A DNA stretch of 64,000 nucleotides from a virus. The translations under genes and the position numbers were made by a program. Positions 1 to 2,805 of this stretch are shown here, piece by piece. The stretch is taken from positions 4,045-68,044 of IMG/VR virus record IMGVR_UViG_3300047557_002158; one strand, given 5' to 3'. The first letter of the stretch is position 1; each line of letters starts with the position of its first letter. The notes under the pieces are model-generated. The model saw nothing but the letters and a program-made list of their open reading frames with translations. It was not told the DNA's origin and did not search any database.

Positions 1-894
1 AGTCCAGAATATTACTGGAAAATAATTGAACACCTGGATGAAATCGGTAGTGAGGCTGGCATATCATTTACCAGTAACCTGTGGCCATTCTATAAGAATC
101 CTAAAAAATGGGCCAAACTATTTACACATCCTCGCATGGGTATTACAACCAGTTTTCAATATGGTGGTGGTAGACTTAAAGGTGACTTGACAGAATTCAG
201 TGAAGAAGATTTTTGGAACGTCAGTGATATGATGCTGGACGTTGTTGGTTATCGTCCAGATTTCATAAGTGTTATCACTAAGGAGAATGAACATCTAGCC
301 ATCAAGAACGTTGAACTGGCCAAGAAAATGGATGTGGAATGTAAATTGAACTATGCGTTCAGTAGTGGACCTCCGGTAAAATTCAAAAACATTATCATGG
401 GACAACAGGGGCAACCATATTTACTGGCAGATATTTACAAAATATATATTGAAATATGGAAAAAAGATTTGACGCAGTGGGAATATAACACAAAACAGAT
501 GGTCAAAAGATTGATTGGCCATACAACAACTTGTCCACAAAATAGAAACTGTGATGAAAGCATTCGAACATTACAACCTAGTGGCGATTATTACAGTTGC
601 GGTGCATTTGGTGATGATAAAATCTATCAAATAGATTTCGAAAAAGAAATGTCAGGTGAAAAAATATTTCCTTTGAAATTTCAACCAGAAATACAAAGTC
701 TTAAACAATCCTGTTTCACCTGTCCAATGTTTCAAATTTGTAATGGTTGCAAGAAGACAATTAAGGATTTAAAAGATCATGACTTGGTGGAAGAACATTG
801 TTCAAAAATGAAACTATTGGCACCAGACATTATTGAATCTAATGGTTTGACGGGTGCTTTAGAACTCACACCATATGTTAGAGAATATACATGA
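1..894 (+). CDS. Radical SAM protein with SPASM-like C-terminal Fe-S domain (5' truncated by window edge)
   Basis: Frame is open from base 1 (SPEYYWKII...). C-terminal Cys pattern CPQNRNC...YSCG...CFTCPMFQICNGC...HC is SPASM-like. The CxxxCxxC motif would lie upstream of the window. Confidence 0.75.
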   Translation, partial: SPEYYWKIIEHLDEIGSEAGISFTSNLWPFYKNPKKWAKLFTHPRMGITTSFQYGGGRLKGDLTEFSEEDFWNVSDMMLDVVGYRPDFISVITKENEHLAIKNVELAKKMDVECKLNYAFSSGPPVKFKNIIMGQQGQPYLLADIYKIYIEIWKKDLTQWEYNTKQMVKRLIGHTTTCPQNRNCDESIRTLQPSGDYYSCGAFGDDKIYQIDFEKEMSGEKIFPLKFQPEIQSLKQSCFTCPMFQICNGCKKTIKDLKDHDLVEEHCSKMKLLAPDIIESNGLTGALELTPYVREYT

Positions 895-1799
895 ATGTTT
901 CTATTAATCCAAGTTACTTCTGCAATTTCAGATGTGACTTTTGTTATCTGACAGAAAAGCAATTATCAGACCAGAAGAAAATAGAATTAGAAAAACTGGA
1001 TGAATTATTATCACAAATACCAAACATAGAACATGTTGATCTATACGGTGGTGAAATAGGTGCACTGAAAAAAGATTACTTTTATGGATTGAAAAATACA
1101 ATACGAAAACATTATAGTGGTAAAATTAATATTAATACCAATTATTCCATGTTGCACGATGGATTCTATGAAGATGATTTCTACCTAAGTGTTAGTTATG
1201 ATTGGGAAGCCAGAGAAAAGTCTGACAGGGTTTACCAGAACATGTTGTTAAGTCCAGTGCCTTTGGCCGTATTGGTCCTAACCAGTCCTAAAGTGTTACG
1301 GATGAATGTTGATGATCTTATATTGTCAATGAACATGTGTAGTGGTGTGAGAAGTGTGGAAATAAAACCTTACAGCACCAACCAGGCAAATCAACATCTC
1401 GTCACACACAAAGACTTTGAGGAGTTTGTTAAAAAGTGGATTGAAAGCCCAATACAAAAAAACTTTGAATTCATTAATGAATATTATATTGAAGATGTTT
1501 TGGATGGTAGTCGAAACGCATTCAGTGATGACCACATCTACATCACACCAAATGGTAAGTTCGCAGTGTTGGAATTTGATTTAAATGACAATGAATATTT
1601 CTTGGAACTGGATAGTTGGAACGATTATGTGAAATGGACACAAAAAGAAAAACGAAACAACGTCAGTGATATCTGTAGAAGTTGTGAATTCTATGGCAAA
1701 TGTCTGACTGAGCACTATCGTTATGTCAAGGATCTAAATAATGGTTGCAATGGTTATAAATTTTTAATAGAGTGGTATCGTGACAGAATGGAAAATTAG
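891..1799 (+). CDS. Radical SAM protein with C-terminal Cys cluster
   Basis: CNFRCDFC (CxxxCxxC), LYGGE motif, NTN strand, C-terminal CRSCEFYGKC...GC. Confidence 0.9.
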   Translation: MNVSINPSYFCNFRCDFCYLTEKQLSDQKKIELEKLDELLSQIPNIEHVDLYGGEIGALKKDYFYGLKNTIRKHYSGKININTNYSMLHDGFYEDDFYLSVSYDWEAREKSDRVYQNMLLSPVPLAVLVLTSPKVLRMNVDDLILSMNMCSGVRSVEIKPYSTNQANQHLVTHKDFEEFVKKWIESPIQKNFEFINEYYIEDVLDGSRNAFSDDHIYITPNGKFAVLEFDLNDNEYFLELDSWNDYVKWTQKEKRNNVSDICRSCEFYGKCLTEHYRYVKDLNNGCNGYKFLIEWYRDRMEN

Positions 1800-2178
1800 A
1801 CAAGAAATTTATTATAGACTCAATACTGATTTTGATGATGATCTGAAAACCAAAAAGGTTGAGATTTCGGATGATATTGTCAACAATGCGGTACGATATT
1901 TCAATGATCGTAATATTGGATGGATATATCCAGCAAAAAGTTATATGGTCGGAATATGTTATTCACGTTGGTTGTCAGAATATTTTGGTGGCGAACCACT
2001 GTCTTATTTAAAAGATCAATCTTTACTTTACAACAATGATCCTTATTTTCAAACATATGATCAGGACAAAAAAGTTTATGATCAAATATTGTTAAAAATT
2101 AATCACTGGAAATTTGATGAAACAATCGGCCTAGTTCCAGATGTTAAGAAGTATTTTATGGAAGAATTTATGTTATGA
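1780..2178 (+). CDS. Hypothetical protein coupled to the radical SAM genes
   Basis: 132-aa ORF overlapping both neighbours. Confidence 0.75.
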   Translation: MTEWKIRQEIYYRLNTDFDDDLKTKKVEISDDIVNNAVRYFNDRNIGWIYPAKSYMVGICYSRWLSEYFGGEPLSYLKDQSLLYNNDPYFQTYDQDKKVYDQILLKINHWKFDETIGLVPDVKKYFMEEFML

Positions 2179-2756
2179 TTCAAAATTTATGGCCAACACC
2201 CTTTTTAAAAACGAATTTTCCAGAAAAAATAAATAACGATTTGTCCAATCATTTATTTTTAAAATATGATTTTTTTAACAATGTGGGTCCAGATGCAATT
2301 GCAACCGAGTCAAGAAATATTTTCGATGATAAATCAAAAATAATAAAAATTTTCAAAGATCAAATTGTAATACCACTATTCGATACTTTTTTAAAAGAAT
2401 CGCTGAATAAAGATTTGTCCTTTTGGAAAGGATATGCACTTAAAGGATGGTTAACTGGTTCGGGTAAAAATTATTCTTCGGAATTTCATAATCATAGAGG
2501 ATCATCACTCTCTGCCATATTTTATTTGTTATGTGACGATGTGGATGTAGGTGGAAATATTCATTTTACGGACCCAAGACAAAATTCAAATCGAGGATAT
2601 GACATGAATTTTATTTCTTGGTTTGAAAATTATACCTTTGTTCCGAAAAGTGGTGATGCAGTTGTTTTTCCTAGTTTTTTGTATCATTATGTTTCAACCT
2701 ATAAAGGAAACATAAGATTGGTTTTACCTGTGGATCTTTTTTTGTTCAACAATTAA
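2175..2756 (+). CDS. Putative 2OG-Fe(II) oxygenase (phage TIGR02466-like)
   Basis: HNH...LSAIFYL...GGNIHFTDPR...PKSGDAVVFPSFLYHYV...R pattern. Confidence 0.85.
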   Translation: MIQNLWPTPFLKTNFPEKINNDLSNHLFLKYDFFNNVGPDAIATESRNIFDDKSKIIKIFKDQIVIPLFDTFLKESLNKDLSFWKGYALKGWLTGSGKNYSSEFHNHRGSSLSAIFYLLCDDVDVGGNIHFTDPRQNSNRGYDMNFISWFENYTFVPKSGDAVVFPSFLYHYVSTYKGNIRLVLPVDLFLFNN

Positions 2757-2805
2757 ACTTCGAAAAGCAAAAAATATCCTAAATATCTTAGTGTTTTTTG
2801 AACAT

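What the first reader, a model, noticed from the sequence alone, without database searches (positions are those of the whole stretch)
1..2756. Phage operon with two radical SAM/SPASM-like enzymes, an unknown protein and a 2OG-Fe(II) oxygenase next to the fibre island
Seen: four overlapping ORFs. One has CxxxCxxC plus GGE, both large ORFs have Cys-rich C-terminal tails, and the last has the oxygenase pattern. Known: SPASM-type radical SAM enzymes mostly modify peptides or proteins (RiPP maturases, anaerobic sulfatase maturases). Inference: this is a phage-encoded peptide/protein modification system. The substrate could be a small precursor upstream of the window or the virion fibres encoded directly downstream, and the 132-aa ORF could be a substrate-recognition partner. 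The cluster start is outside the window.
Basis: partly seen in the sequence, partly recalled or inferred. Interest (0 to 1): 0.8.

Follow-up and report, generated by a model that had tools for sequence, protein, structure and literature searches.

The report
Phage radical-SAM cassette maturing Cys-His-tailed protein
These four genes are the back half of a gene cassette found almost only in viruses, in which iron-sulfur "radical SAM" enzymes and iron oxygenases sit around one small protein with a fixed Cys-His-rich tail that they most likely modify; I found no paper that describes this.

Summary
Window 1-2756 has four translationally coupled + strand ORFs:
- the C-terminal 297 aa of a 356-aa radical SAM/SPASM enzyme
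- a 302-aa radical SAM enzyme with only one auxiliary Cys set
- a 132-aa orphan protein
- a PF13759 2OG-Fe(II) oxygenase

They form the 3' half of a roughly 10-kb collinear cassette that runs off the window and off the contig. Its order is JmjC-like cupin, rSAM, a ~190-aa protein, two orphan proteins, then three more rSAM orthologue groups interleaved with 2OG oxygenases, then the 132-aa protein.

The ~190-aa protein ends in (Cys-His-x-x)x3-Arg-x-Arg-Arg in 78 of 78 complete IMG/VR copies. It has no other Cys or His in the six copies I checked. In 54 of 65 loci a T4-late-promoter-like TATAAATA lies upstream of it.

All four core rSAM groups occur in 49-51 of 51 fully covered loci, and the order is collinear in 48 of 48. 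Among cultured phages the cassette is in 12, from unrelated lineages.

The 132-aa protein occurs naturally fused to the 302-aa rSAM.

Best reading: a RiPP-like protein maturation system whose substrate is the Cys-His tail, not the fibres. The chemistry and the role of the product are unknown. Earlier agents of this scan found the same cassette on other DNA. I found no paper describing it.

The parts
1..894 (+). C-terminal 297 aa of a 356-aa radical SAM/SPASM enzyme ('rSAM356'; full gene L006:3868-4938, starting 177 nt before the window). It is the most conserved enzyme of the cassette.
   Evidence: PF04055 43.7 bits on the full protein. DynA 1.2e-12 and anSME 2.5e-12 align over the full length; TIGR04085 SPASM scores 26.1, cut-off 27. 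phrog_1802 9.6e-60. The best solved relative is anSME 4k37, E 1e-4, with both the core and the SPASM part aligned. There are 8 invariant C-terminal Cys plus C173. Identity is 57-64% in 15 of 15 phage records. At least 1445 homologues have E<=1e-10.
891..1799 (+). 302-aa radical SAM enzyme ('rSAM302') with CxxxCxxC, GGE and a single four-Cys auxiliary set (partial SPASM or twitch-like).
   Evidence: PF04055 30.9 bits, cut-off 29.5. phrog_1802 5.7e-34. Invariant C11, C15, C18 and C262, C265, C271, C286. Orthologues are 46-56% identical in RSL2, Atu_ph07, DT01 and Phosso. Present in 49 of 51 fully covered IMG/VR loci.
1780..2178 (+). 132-aa orphan protein ('unk132', phrog_20737), the accessory partner of rSAM302. 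Mostly helical, with no recognisable fold.
   Evidence: phrog_20737 2.3e-51. No Pfam match above cut-off and no NCBIfam match. 211 cluster representatives have E<=1e-3. Natural rSAM302-unk132 fusions: P0121, P0176, P0218, P0244, P0267, P0262 and L083:18128-19474. It begins within 20 nt of the rSAM302 end in 43 of 48 loci. Invariant D20, P51, K53, Y61, Y93, Y100, E129. Model pLDDT is 95.9.
2175..2756 (+). 193-aa 2OG-Fe(II) oxygenase ('2OGc193', PF13759 type), the last gene of the cassette.
   Evidence: PF13759 3e-10, 40.8 bits, cut-off 27. phrog_81 1.7e-22. TIGR02466 is below its cut-off. Conserved H105-x-H107, H171 and R181 in 42 orthologues. Present in 47 of 51 loci.

Best explanation
The four ORFs are the distal half of a virus-borne, RiPP-like protein maturation cassette.

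Gene order, from the close relative L007/L016 and from L015+L006: JmjC-like cupin; rSAM-SPASM ('rSAM4'); a ~190-aa substrate protein; orphan grp7 (phrog_20767); orphan unk345; 2OG oxygenase; rSAM334; 2OG oxygenase with an extra N-domain; rSAM356; rSAM302; unk132; 2OG oxygenase.

The substrate is a folded alpha/beta protein. Its low-confidence (probably disordered) C-terminal 16 residues read C-H-[AST]-S-C-H-x-[SNA]-C-H-x-[SNA]-R-[GS]-R-R-COOH.

Inferred mechanism: the rSAM enzymes use 5'-deoxyadenosyl radicals to abstract hydrogen atoms in this tail and install cross-links. These could be Cys thioethers of the sactionine or ranthionine type, and/or His-to-C-beta cyclophane links across each H-x-S triplet. 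The cupin and the 2OG oxygenases would add hydroxylations. rSAM302 would work as a complex with unk132, as HxsC does with HxsD.

The product stays a protein, because the cassette contains no recognisable protease. It is made late from its own promoter and probably enters, or acts with, the particle.

Shown here: the gene set, its conservation, the invariant tail and the fusion. Inferred: who modifies what, the chemistry, and the fate of the product.
For: 1. The cassette extends upstream. L006 holds unk345, two PF13640 oxygenases and a third rSAM.

2. The cassette is conserved together. Orthologues of rSAM334, rSAM356, rSAM302 and unk132 occur in RSL2, Atu_ph07, DT01, Phosso and the IMG/VR loci. 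unk132 and rSAM356 hit the same 15 of 50,697 phage records.

3. Co-occurrence in loci seeded on the tail protein. In the 51 loci with at least 10.4 kb after its start, the counts are: rSAM4 51, grp7 51, rSAM334 51, rSAM356 51, rSAM302 49, unk132 48, 2OGc 47, unk345 49. Order and strand are the same in 48 of 48.

4. The tail protein is present in every lineage examined.

5. The tail motif is fixed. 78 of 78 complete genes end CH..CH..CH..R.RR-stop, with ten invariant positions. 98 of 120 database homologues match the strict CHxS form. In the six copies for which I printed positions, all Cys and His lie in the tail.

6. The tail protein models as a folded domain at high confidence, with the last 12 residues (178-189, most of the 16-residue motif) below pLDDT 50.

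7. TATAAATA lies within 300 nt upstream of the tail-protein gene in 54 of 65 distinct loci. The background is 146 of 3860 windows, and the count is 0 for six of nine other cassette genes.

8. The enzyme families act on peptides or proteins:
- rSAM4: PapB 1.3e-12, anSME 2.5e-11, SPASM 35 bits (cut-off 27), HxsB 3.2e-9
- rSAM356: DynA and anSME
- cupin: JmjC_2 1.5e-9
- weak match to the YhhC cyclophane-peptide oxygenase, 0.0037

9. rSAM302-unk132 fusions exist.

10. Precedents in print. HXS: rSAM HxsB/HxsC plus the small HxsD mature the HxS-repeat protein HxsA (PMC13128918; abstract and sections 9-10 read). CrpC installs thioethers on the protein CrpA (PMC13692751; abstract read).

11. The family is virus-restricted. 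There was 1 hit in 185,579 species genomes, on a 113-kb MAG contig.
Against: - No experiment or mass-spectrometry datum links any of these enzymes to the tail.
- The substrate gene is not on this contig. Its presence in this phage is inferred from L015 (a 60-nt gap inside grp7) and from P0001 and P0307 each reporting a longest contig of 126,073 bp.
- None of the rSAMs has an RRE domain, and every equivalog model scores far below its cut-off. The enzyme class does not fix the substrate.
- A tail whose only Cys and His residues are these would also make a good metal or Fe-S ligand set rather than a substrate.
- Eight or more enzymes for a 16-residue tail is a lot. Some of them may act on other targets.
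- The TATAAATA motif often lies about 176-200 nt upstream, inside the rSAM4 coding sequence. Coding constraint could contribute to its conservation.
- Virion residence rests on my own CDS count in Atu_ph07 and on a supplement I could not open.
Confidence: 0.65

Rival explanations
1. The enzymes modify the tail fibres or baseplate proteins encoded beside the cassette. The Cys-His-tailed protein would be just another structural protein.
For: In this phage group the cassette sits inside the fibre and baseplate region. L015 has baseplate-wedge-like and fibre-like genes upstream (phrog_719, phrog_19602). An LtfC-like gene and fibres lie downstream. LtfC-like follows the cassette in 26 of 51 loci. 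The N-domain of the 372-aa oxygenase weakly matches a short-tail-fibre PHROG (7.9e-5). In DT01 and Atu_ph07 large structural genes are close by.
Against: The window has no CH..CH motif and no ORF over 60 aa ending R.RR in any of six frames. rSAM356 is 57-64% identical in phages as different as a Chiangmaivirus of 224 kb, a Polybotosvirus of 490 kb and this T4-like phage. Of the proteins I compared, the only non-enzyme ones shared by those lineages lie inside the cassette. I did not compare their fibre proteins directly. In Atu_ph07 the cassette is followed by small ORFs, not fibres.
Confidence: 0.08
2. The Cys-His-tailed protein is not the substrate. It is a metal or Fe-S donor or scaffold that serves the many iron enzymes of the cassette. 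The true substrate would be a small molecule, a nucleotide or a host macromolecule.
For: The tail's three Cys at CxxxCxxxC spacing and three His are classic metal ligands. The cassette holds at least 4 rSAMs with up to three clusters each, plus at least 4 Fe(II) enzymes. There is no RRE and no protease. The very high conservation of rSAM356 fits a universal substrate. Weak N-terminal matches to MoaA, NrdG, QueE and viperin models exist.
Against: Ser-13 and the three terminal Arg are as invariant as the Cys and His (78 of 78), which metal binding alone does not explain. The body has no likeness to any solved fold, known Fe-S scaffolds included (Foldseek no hit at E<=0.001, best VIA Z 3.7). A private late-promoter-like motif suggests stoichiometric rather than catalytic amounts. 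The full-length family matches are to peptide or protein maturases.
Confidence: 0.15
3. The cassette is a phage-borne counterpart of the bacterial HXS defence. The matured HxS-repeat protein would act at the cell envelope to block DNA entry of competing phages (superinfection exclusion) and would not be a particle component.
For: The substrate carries three H-x-S triplets and a basic end. Several rSAMs and a small partner bound to one of them are present. The Hxs models give weak hits: HxsB 3.2e-9, and HxsC 1.8e-6 and 9.8e-4. In HXS the modified HxS array binds DNA (PMC13128918, section 9 read).
Against: The tail protein and unk132 match no NCBIfam family, including whatever HxsA or HxsD models that library holds. 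HxsB and HxsC scores are an order of magnitude below their cut-offs. The N-terminus of the tail protein (P0307, L007 and L011 copies) has no hydrophobic signal-like stretch, and no peptidoglycan-binding domain was detected. Late-promoter-like control and a position among structural genes fit a particle protein better than an early exclusion factor.
Confidence: 0.07

Closest known systems
HXS antiphage system (HxsA/HxsB/HxsC/HxsD; Li et al., Nat Commun 2026, PMC13128918; abstract and sections 9-10 read)
   Same: A full-size protein, not a short peptide, carries His-x-Ser repeats. It is matured by more than one radical SAM enzyme, and one of those enzymes works with a small dedicated partner protein. 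The residues next to the repeats are basic.
   Different: HXS is bacterial and, per the paper, 99.7% Pseudomonadota. This cassette is viral, with 1 hit in 185,579 species genomes. HXS has two rSAMs and no oxygenases. This cassette has four or more rSAM groups plus a cupin and 2OG oxygenases. Here the repeats are C-H-x-S at the extreme C-terminus followed by R-x-R-R. The HxsB and HxsC models score far below their cut-offs, and the tail protein and unk132 match no NCBIfam family. No signal peptide or peptidoglycan-binding domain is present.
CrpA/CrpC of Methanococcus voltae (Dieter et al., ACS Bio Med Chem Au 2026, PMC13692751; abstract read)
   Same: A SPASM radical SAM enzyme with three [4Fe-4S] clusters installs thioether (ranthionine) cross-links on a Cys-rich protein encoded beside it.
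   Different: Crp is archaeal, uses a single enzyme that has an RRE, and its substrate is Cys-rich throughout. Here three Cys are confined to a 16-residue tail, no RRE was detected, and there are many more enzymes. I did not run a homology test against CrpC.
Anaerobic sulfatase-maturating enzyme (anSME, PDB 4k36-4k39; TIGR03942)
   Same: It is the closest solved relative of rSAM356. Both the radical SAM core and the SPASM part align. It is an RRE-less SPASM enzyme that acts on a Cys or Ser of a full-size protein, and it aligns over its full length with rSAM356 and rSAM4.
   Different: Scores are 43-47 bits against a cut-off of 349. The substrate motif C/S-x-P/A-x-R (recalled) is absent from the tail, and no sulfatase is encoded nearby.
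Triceptide / three-residue cyclophane RiPP pathways (YhhB/YhhC, HaaB, HtkB; PMC11499958, listing and abstract seen)
   Same: rSAM/SPASM enzymes cross-link an aromatic or His side chain to the C-beta of the residue two positions on, in repeated three-residue motifs, and a 2OG-Fe(II) oxygenase can tailor the product. The H-x-S triplets here have that format. Weak hits exist to YhhB (1.3e-6) and YhhC (0.0037).
   Different: Those substrates are short peptides with leaders and proteases, and they are bacterial. All scores here are far below the cut-offs. The Cys before each His has no counterpart in those systems.

Membership tests
Radical SAM superfamily (PF04055) | CxxxCxxC cluster motif and a score at or above the Pfam gathering cut-off | tested here: met
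   rSAM302 scores 30.9 bits against 29.5, with C11, C15, C18 and GGE at 53-55. Full-length rSAM356 scores 43.7 bits, with C11, C15, C18. The window copy of rSAM356 lacks the motif because the gene starts before base 1.
SPASM domain (TIGR04085) | Seven or eight Cys C-terminal set for two auxiliary [4Fe-4S] clusters, and a score at or above 27 bits | tested here: inconclusive
   rSAM356 has 8 invariant C-terminal Cys but scores 25.6-26.1 bits, just under the cut-off of 27. The upstream rSAM4 passes at 35.0 bits. rSAM302 has only 4 conserved C-terminal Cys and no SPASM hit, so it is not a full SPASM protein.
Anaerobic sulfatase maturase (TIGR03942) | Equivalog score at or above 349 | tested here: not met
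   46.6 bits for rSAM356, 43.3 for rSAM4 and 15.1 for rSAM302.
HXS system (HxsA, HxsB, HxsC, HxsD) | HxsB and HxsC equivalog scores (370 and 268 bits), an HxsA-type effector and an HxsD partner | tested here: not met
   HxsB 36.0 bits. HxsC 27.1 and 18.1 bits. No NCBIfam family matches the tail protein or unk132. Only the formal feature of H-x-S repeats in the substrate is shared.
   MoaA scores 20-26 bits against cut-offs of 231-325. NrdG2 scores 23-24 against 131. QueE scores 18.7 against 260. All cover only about the first 60-120 residues; the one exception is rSAM4, whose 22-bit MoaA match spans residues 9-265. Peptide-maturase models align over the full length.
2OG-FeII_Oxy_5 (PF13759) and TIGR02466 | Score at or above the cut-off | tested here: met
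   PF13759 scores 40.8 bits against 27, so this is met. TIGR02466 scores 32.6 against 62.5, so it is not met at NCBI's level. Conserved H105-x-H107, H171 and R181.
RiPP biosynthetic gene cluster (canonical) | A short precursor with leader and core, an RRE or leader-binding domain, and a leader protease or exporter | tested here: not met
   The substrate candidate is a folded 189-aa protein. No RRE, protease or transporter family was found in any cassette protein scanned. It works like a RiPP pathway but is better called protein maturation.

The most novel reading that the evidence does not exclude
Large phages run their own multi-enzyme radical-SAM and oxygenase pathway to build a multiply cross-linked, hydroxylated Cys-His macrocyclic 'warhead' on the C-terminus of a late particle protein. 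The warhead may bind metal or DNA. This would be the first radical-SAM post-translational modification of a virion component. It would involve chemistry on a C-H-x-S repeat that no characterised enzyme performs, and it would mirror on the phage side the bacterial HXS system that gates DNA entry.
Probability: 0.35. Interest if true: 0.9.

Novelty: new variant of a known kind. Interest (0 to 1): 0.78.

Why it matters
Radical SAM/SPASM maturation is known for bacterial and archaeal peptides and for a few proteins (sulfatases, QhpC, HxsA, CrpA). Here the whole pathway is carried by viruses.

- It is abundant. There are at least 1445 homologues of one enzyme and 806 of the tail protein in metagenome data.
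- It moves between phage lineages that differ greatly in host, taxonomy and genome size.
- It is centred on a new substrate family with an invariant 16-residue tail.
- It includes four orphan protein families.

If the inference holds, it opens new enzymology on a defined, short and easily synthesised substrate. It also asks what a chemically rebuilt Cys-His tail does for a phage, whether in particle assembly, DNA ejection, metal handling or competition. Finally, it gives a function to a block of 'radical SAM / Fe-S oxidoreductase / 2OG oxygenase / hypothetical' annotations in jumbo phages used for biocontrol.

Tried and rejected
- Megablast of window 1-2800 against 50,697 phage records gave no match. 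tblastn of P0307 against the same records also gave no match. The homologues in cultured phages were found only with a profile.

- Fold searches found nothing. For unk132: Foldseek against PDB gave no hit at E<=0.001; VIA wide gave a best Z of 4.2, rmsd 2.9 over 81 residues (ORC winged-helix region, not above noise); BFVD returned only the RSL2 orthologue. For the tail protein: Foldseek gave none and the best VIA Z was 3.7.

- Profile searches of grp7, unk345, unk132 and the tail protein against PDB sequences gave nothing below E 0.69.

- The ESM Atlas gave no usable hit for unk132 and only a 0.75 lead for grp7.

- Complex prediction with rSAM302 + unk132 + tail protein (partner) returned 'no answer', score 0.01. 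This is neither for nor against binding.

- DNA hypermodification was considered and set aside. Among the cassette proteins scanned I saw no methyltransferase, glycosyltransferase, kinase or TET-like gene.

- A heme-type CxxxCH reading of the tail was considered, from recalled knowledge only. I did not pursue it, because the protein shows no export signal.

- Virion residence of the Atu_ph07 homologue could not be confirmed. The main text of PMC6102473 names virion clusters 'CDS 170-215' and lists no single proteins. Supplementary Table S5 is closed. My count from gp141 (lysin) makes the homologue CDS 170, but that count is my own.

- Searches behind the claim 'not in print':
  - 'radical SAM' + 'jumbo phage': 9 papers, 3 opened (passages around the term only), annotation lists only
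  - 'radical SAM' + bacteriophage + SPASM + '2OG-Fe': 0 papers
  - 'radical SAM' + SPASM + phage + 'tail fiber': 3 papers, unrelated by title and abstract start, none opened
  - 'His-Xaa-Ser': 8 papers
  - 'phage-encoded' + 'radical SAM' + RiPP: 5 papers, none on this by title and abstract start, none opened
  Subscription journals are not covered.


Full report
**What is in the window.** One search confirms four + strand ORFs: 1..894 (5'-open), 891..1799, 1780..2178 and 2175..2756. They overlap by 4, 20 and 4 nt, which is the layout of a translationally coupled operon. G+C content (0.33-0.35) does not differ from the neighbouring DNA.

- ORF 891..1799 has CxxxCxxC at residues 11-18 and GGE at 53-55. 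It passes Pfam Radical_SAM.
- ORF 2175..2756 passes PF13759 2OG-FeII_Oxy_5 but not TIGR02466.
- The 132-aa ORF has no Pfam match above cut-off and no NCBIfam family. It is a full-length member of phrog_20737.
- Both large ORFs belong to phrog_1802.

The rest of the window encodes portal, major head, sheath, terminase and gp46-like proteins of T4 type. This is therefore a T4-like myovirus. CheckV rates the 68-kb record 41% complete.

**The cluster continues upstream.** The window is G000:C1:4045-68044. The 4 kb before it (L006) hold:
- the missing N-terminus of the first enzyme (356 aa in all, with CxxxCxxC at 11-18)
- a third radical SAM enzyme (334 aa)
- two paralogous PF13640 oxygenases (209 and 372 aa, 40% identical)
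- an orphan of 345 aa
- at the very first bases of the contig, the last 32 codons of yet another gene

Conserved-Cys counts across orthologues are:
- 3 + C173 + 8 for the 356-aa enzyme
- 3 + 6-7 for the 334-aa enzyme
- 3 + 4 for the 302-aa enzyme

The other has a reduced, single-cluster-type tail.

The closest solved protein to the 356-aa enzyme is the anaerobic sulfatase maturase 4k37, with both the core and the SPASM part aligned (E 1e-4). The best curated models are DynA and anSME over the full length. MoaA, NrdG, QueE and viperin models match only about the first 60-120 residues, and all scores are far below the cut-offs.

**Conservation.** The 132-aa protein and the 356-aa enzyme each hit the same 15 of 50,697 phage records, which are 12 distinct phages:
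- the RSL2/RSF1/FLC/SURPRISE13/RsoM3USA group of Ralstonia and Burkholderia jumbo phages
- Agrobacterium phage Atu_ph07
- Sinorhizobium phage Phosso
- Pseudomonas phage pPa_SNUABM_DT01

The enzyme is 57-64% identical across these lineages, while the 132-aa protein is 32-45% identical. BLASTP of all ORFs shows separate orthologue groups for each of the three rSAMs and for the 132-aa protein in every lineage. It also shows further shared groups upstream.

The close relative L007 (94% identical in the 356-aa enzyme) shows the whole order: JmjC_2/cupin (PF08007 1.5e-9); a fourth rSAM with a SPASM domain above cut-off, whose best model is PapB; a 190-aa protein; grp7 (phrog_20767); then the genes seen in L006.

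The papers on FLC6, RP12/RP31 and S13 only list these genes as radical SAM, Fe-S oxidoreductase, 2OG oxygenase and cupin, and give no function. I read only the passages around the term.

**The candidate substrate.** When I printed the non-enzyme proteins of all lineages, the protein after the fourth rSAM ended the same way in L007, L011, RSL2 ORF068, Atu_ph07, DT01 and Phosso: three Cys-His-x-Ser units followed by Arg-x-Arg-Arg and the stop codon.
- It has 806 database homologues. Of the best 120, 98 end in the strict form. In the six for which I printed positions, every Cys and His lies in the tail.
- A profile of the aquatic members finds the four jumbo-phage homologues at E 5e-19 to 4e-11, so the body is homologous as well.
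- Seeding IMG/VR with this family gave 99 relatives, of which 80 loci were kept.
- Of the 78 loci with a complete 3' end, all 78 end CH..CH..CH..R.RR-stop. C-16, H-15, S-13, C-12, H-11, C-8, H-7, R-4, R-2 and R-1 are invariant.
- The AlphaFold model (pLDDT 81) has a confident alpha/beta body. Most of the motif (residues 178-189) is below pLDDT 50.
- No solved fold resembles the body.

**Co-occurrence at scale.** I counted hits in the 51 loci that reach at least 10.4 kb past the start of the tail-protein gene (tblastn E<1e-6):

| Component | Loci with a hit (of 51) |
|---|---|
| rSAM4 | 51 |
| grp7 | 51 |
| rSAM334 | 51 |
| rSAM356 | 51 |
| rSAM302 | 49 |
| unk345 | 49 |
| unk132 | 48 |
| 2OGc | 47 |
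| cupin | 35 |
| LtfC-like | 26 |

- The cupin is divergent, so 35 is a lower bound.
- In L082, L084 and L089 the missing rSAM302 and unk132 would lie near or beyond the locus end, by the hit positions printed.
- Order and strand are identical in 48 of 48 loci that have all seven core genes.
- rSAM4 is present in 75 of 75 loci with at least 1.6 kb upstream.
- In 185,579 species genomes the family was found once, on a 113-kb contig of a MAG. The family is essentially viral.

**This phage.**
- The contig starts at residue 208 of grp7.
- L015, a 41,680-bp IMG/VR contig, ends at residue 187 of grp7. It carries a tail protein 100% identical to P0307.
- P0307 and P0001 (the exact 356-aa enzyme of this window) are each recorded with a longest contig of 126,073 bp.

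I therefore take L015 as the left neighbour, across a gap of about 60 nt. This is an inference and not an assembly. Upstream of the cassette L015 encodes baseplate-wedge-like and fibre-like proteins. The cassette is thus embedded in the fibre region on both sides.

**Expression signal.** The octamer TATAAATA is the T4 late-promoter consensus as I recall it.
- It lies on the coding strand within 300 nt upstream of the tail-protein gene in 54 of 65 distinct loci.
- The background is 146 of 3860 300-nt windows.
- For the other cassette genes the counts are 0 of 41-62 for six genes, 7 of 59 for rSAM334, and 1 each for unk132 and 2OGc.
- It sits either about 34 nt or about 176-200 nt before the start. 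The latter position is inside the rSAM4 coding sequence, so coding constraint may add to its conservation.

I read it as a private late promoter for a protein needed in larger amounts than the enzymes.

**The 132-aa protein.**
- It has 211 cluster representatives.
- I fetched eleven of the longer hits, all of 224 aa or more. Six are fusions with an rSAM302-type enzyme in front. Five of those have their own CxxxCxxC, and the sixth is N-terminally cut. The other five carry C-terminal extensions instead.
- One IMG/VR locus has a 448-aa fusion in place (L083).
- In 43 of 48 loci the gene starts within 20 nt of the end of rSAM302.
- The model is very confident (pLDDT 95.9). It matches nothing solved and only its RSL2 orthologue among viral models.
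- Seven residues are invariant in 55 sequences.

It is therefore a dedicated partner, or a detachable domain, of rSAM302. Whether it recognises the substrate is open. The one complex prediction gave no answer (listed under Tried and rejected).

**Mechanism.**
- Shown: the gene set, its linkage, the invariant tail, the fusion and the family assignments.
- Inferred: the tail is the substrate. The rSAMs install cross-links on it, either thioethers from the three Cys, as PapB, CrpC and QhpD-type enzymes do, or His-to-C-beta links across each H-x-S triplet, as His-cyclophane synthases do. The JmjC-like cupin and the P4H-like and PF13759 oxygenases then hydroxylate it. My recollection is that JmjC_2 members hydroxylate His and Arg in ribosomal proteins.

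The invariance of Ser-13 and of the three Arg, equal to that of the Cys and His, argues for enzyme recognition of the whole tail rather than plain metal binding. The high conservation of rSAM356 matches the invariance of the tail, and does not fit lineage-specific fibres as substrate. Nothing in the window carries a similar motif.

**Comparison with known systems.** The nearest described system is the bacterial HXS defence (PMC13128918; abstract and sections 9-10 read). There the rSAMs HxsB and HxsC, the latter bound to the small HxsD, mature HxsA. HxsA has five HxS repeats, and one SHRSS motif gains +8 Da. I reached this paper through my own search before I looked at earlier notes.

The phage cassette is not a member of HXS. 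The Hxs models score far below their cut-offs, and the tail protein and unk132 match no NCBIfam family.

CrpC/CrpA (PMC13692751, abstract read) shows that SPASM enzymes can put thioethers on a whole protein.

**Earlier notes of this scan.** Searches show that other agents met the same cassette on other genomes and read it the same way. They add that a relative of the tail protein is in Atu_ph07 particles. I could not verify that. The main text gives only 'CDS 170-215' as a virion cluster. My count from gp141 puts the homologue at CDS 170, and the supplement is closed.

**Verdict.** Confidence is about 0.97 that the four ORFs belong to this conserved cassette, 0.65 that the Cys-His tail is its substrate, and about 0.4 that the product is a particle component.

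Noticed in passing
L006:2734-3852 (just upstream of the window): The 372-aa oxygenase has an extra ~160-aa N-terminal domain that weakly matches a 'short tail fiber protein' PHROG (phrog_4527, 7.9e-5, residues 10-116). Its C-terminal half is a 40%-identical paralogue of the 209-aa oxygenase two genes before it.
   Followed up: no
L015 (IMG/VR contig of 41,680 bp) and the first bases of this contig: L015 ends at residue 187 and this contig starts at residue 208 of the same grp7 gene. The two records are probably fragments of one genome, split by about 60 nt.
   Followed up: partly
L095 (genome contigs, MAG labelled Marinovum sp., 113-kb contig): This is the only hit of the tail-protein family in 185,579 species genomes. 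The contig is probably a phage binned into a MAG. If the binning reflects a real association, it hints at a roseobacter host.
   Followed up: no
L014 (Pseudomonas phage pPa_SNUABM_DT01) and several IMG/VR loci such as L023, L029, L053: The number of enzymes varies. DT01 has six annotated rSAM genes. In many IMG/VR loci 2-5 kb of extra genes lie between rSAM334 and rSAM356 (positions). The tail keeps the same 16 residues throughout.
   Followed up: no
L013 (Agrobacterium phage Atu_ph07): Here the 132-aa gene is separated from rSAM302 by about 5 kb of small ORFs and lies on the opposite strand. The usual tight coupling is therefore not obligatory.
   Followed up: no
I did not examine them beyond finding that none carries a CH..CH motif.
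   Followed up: no
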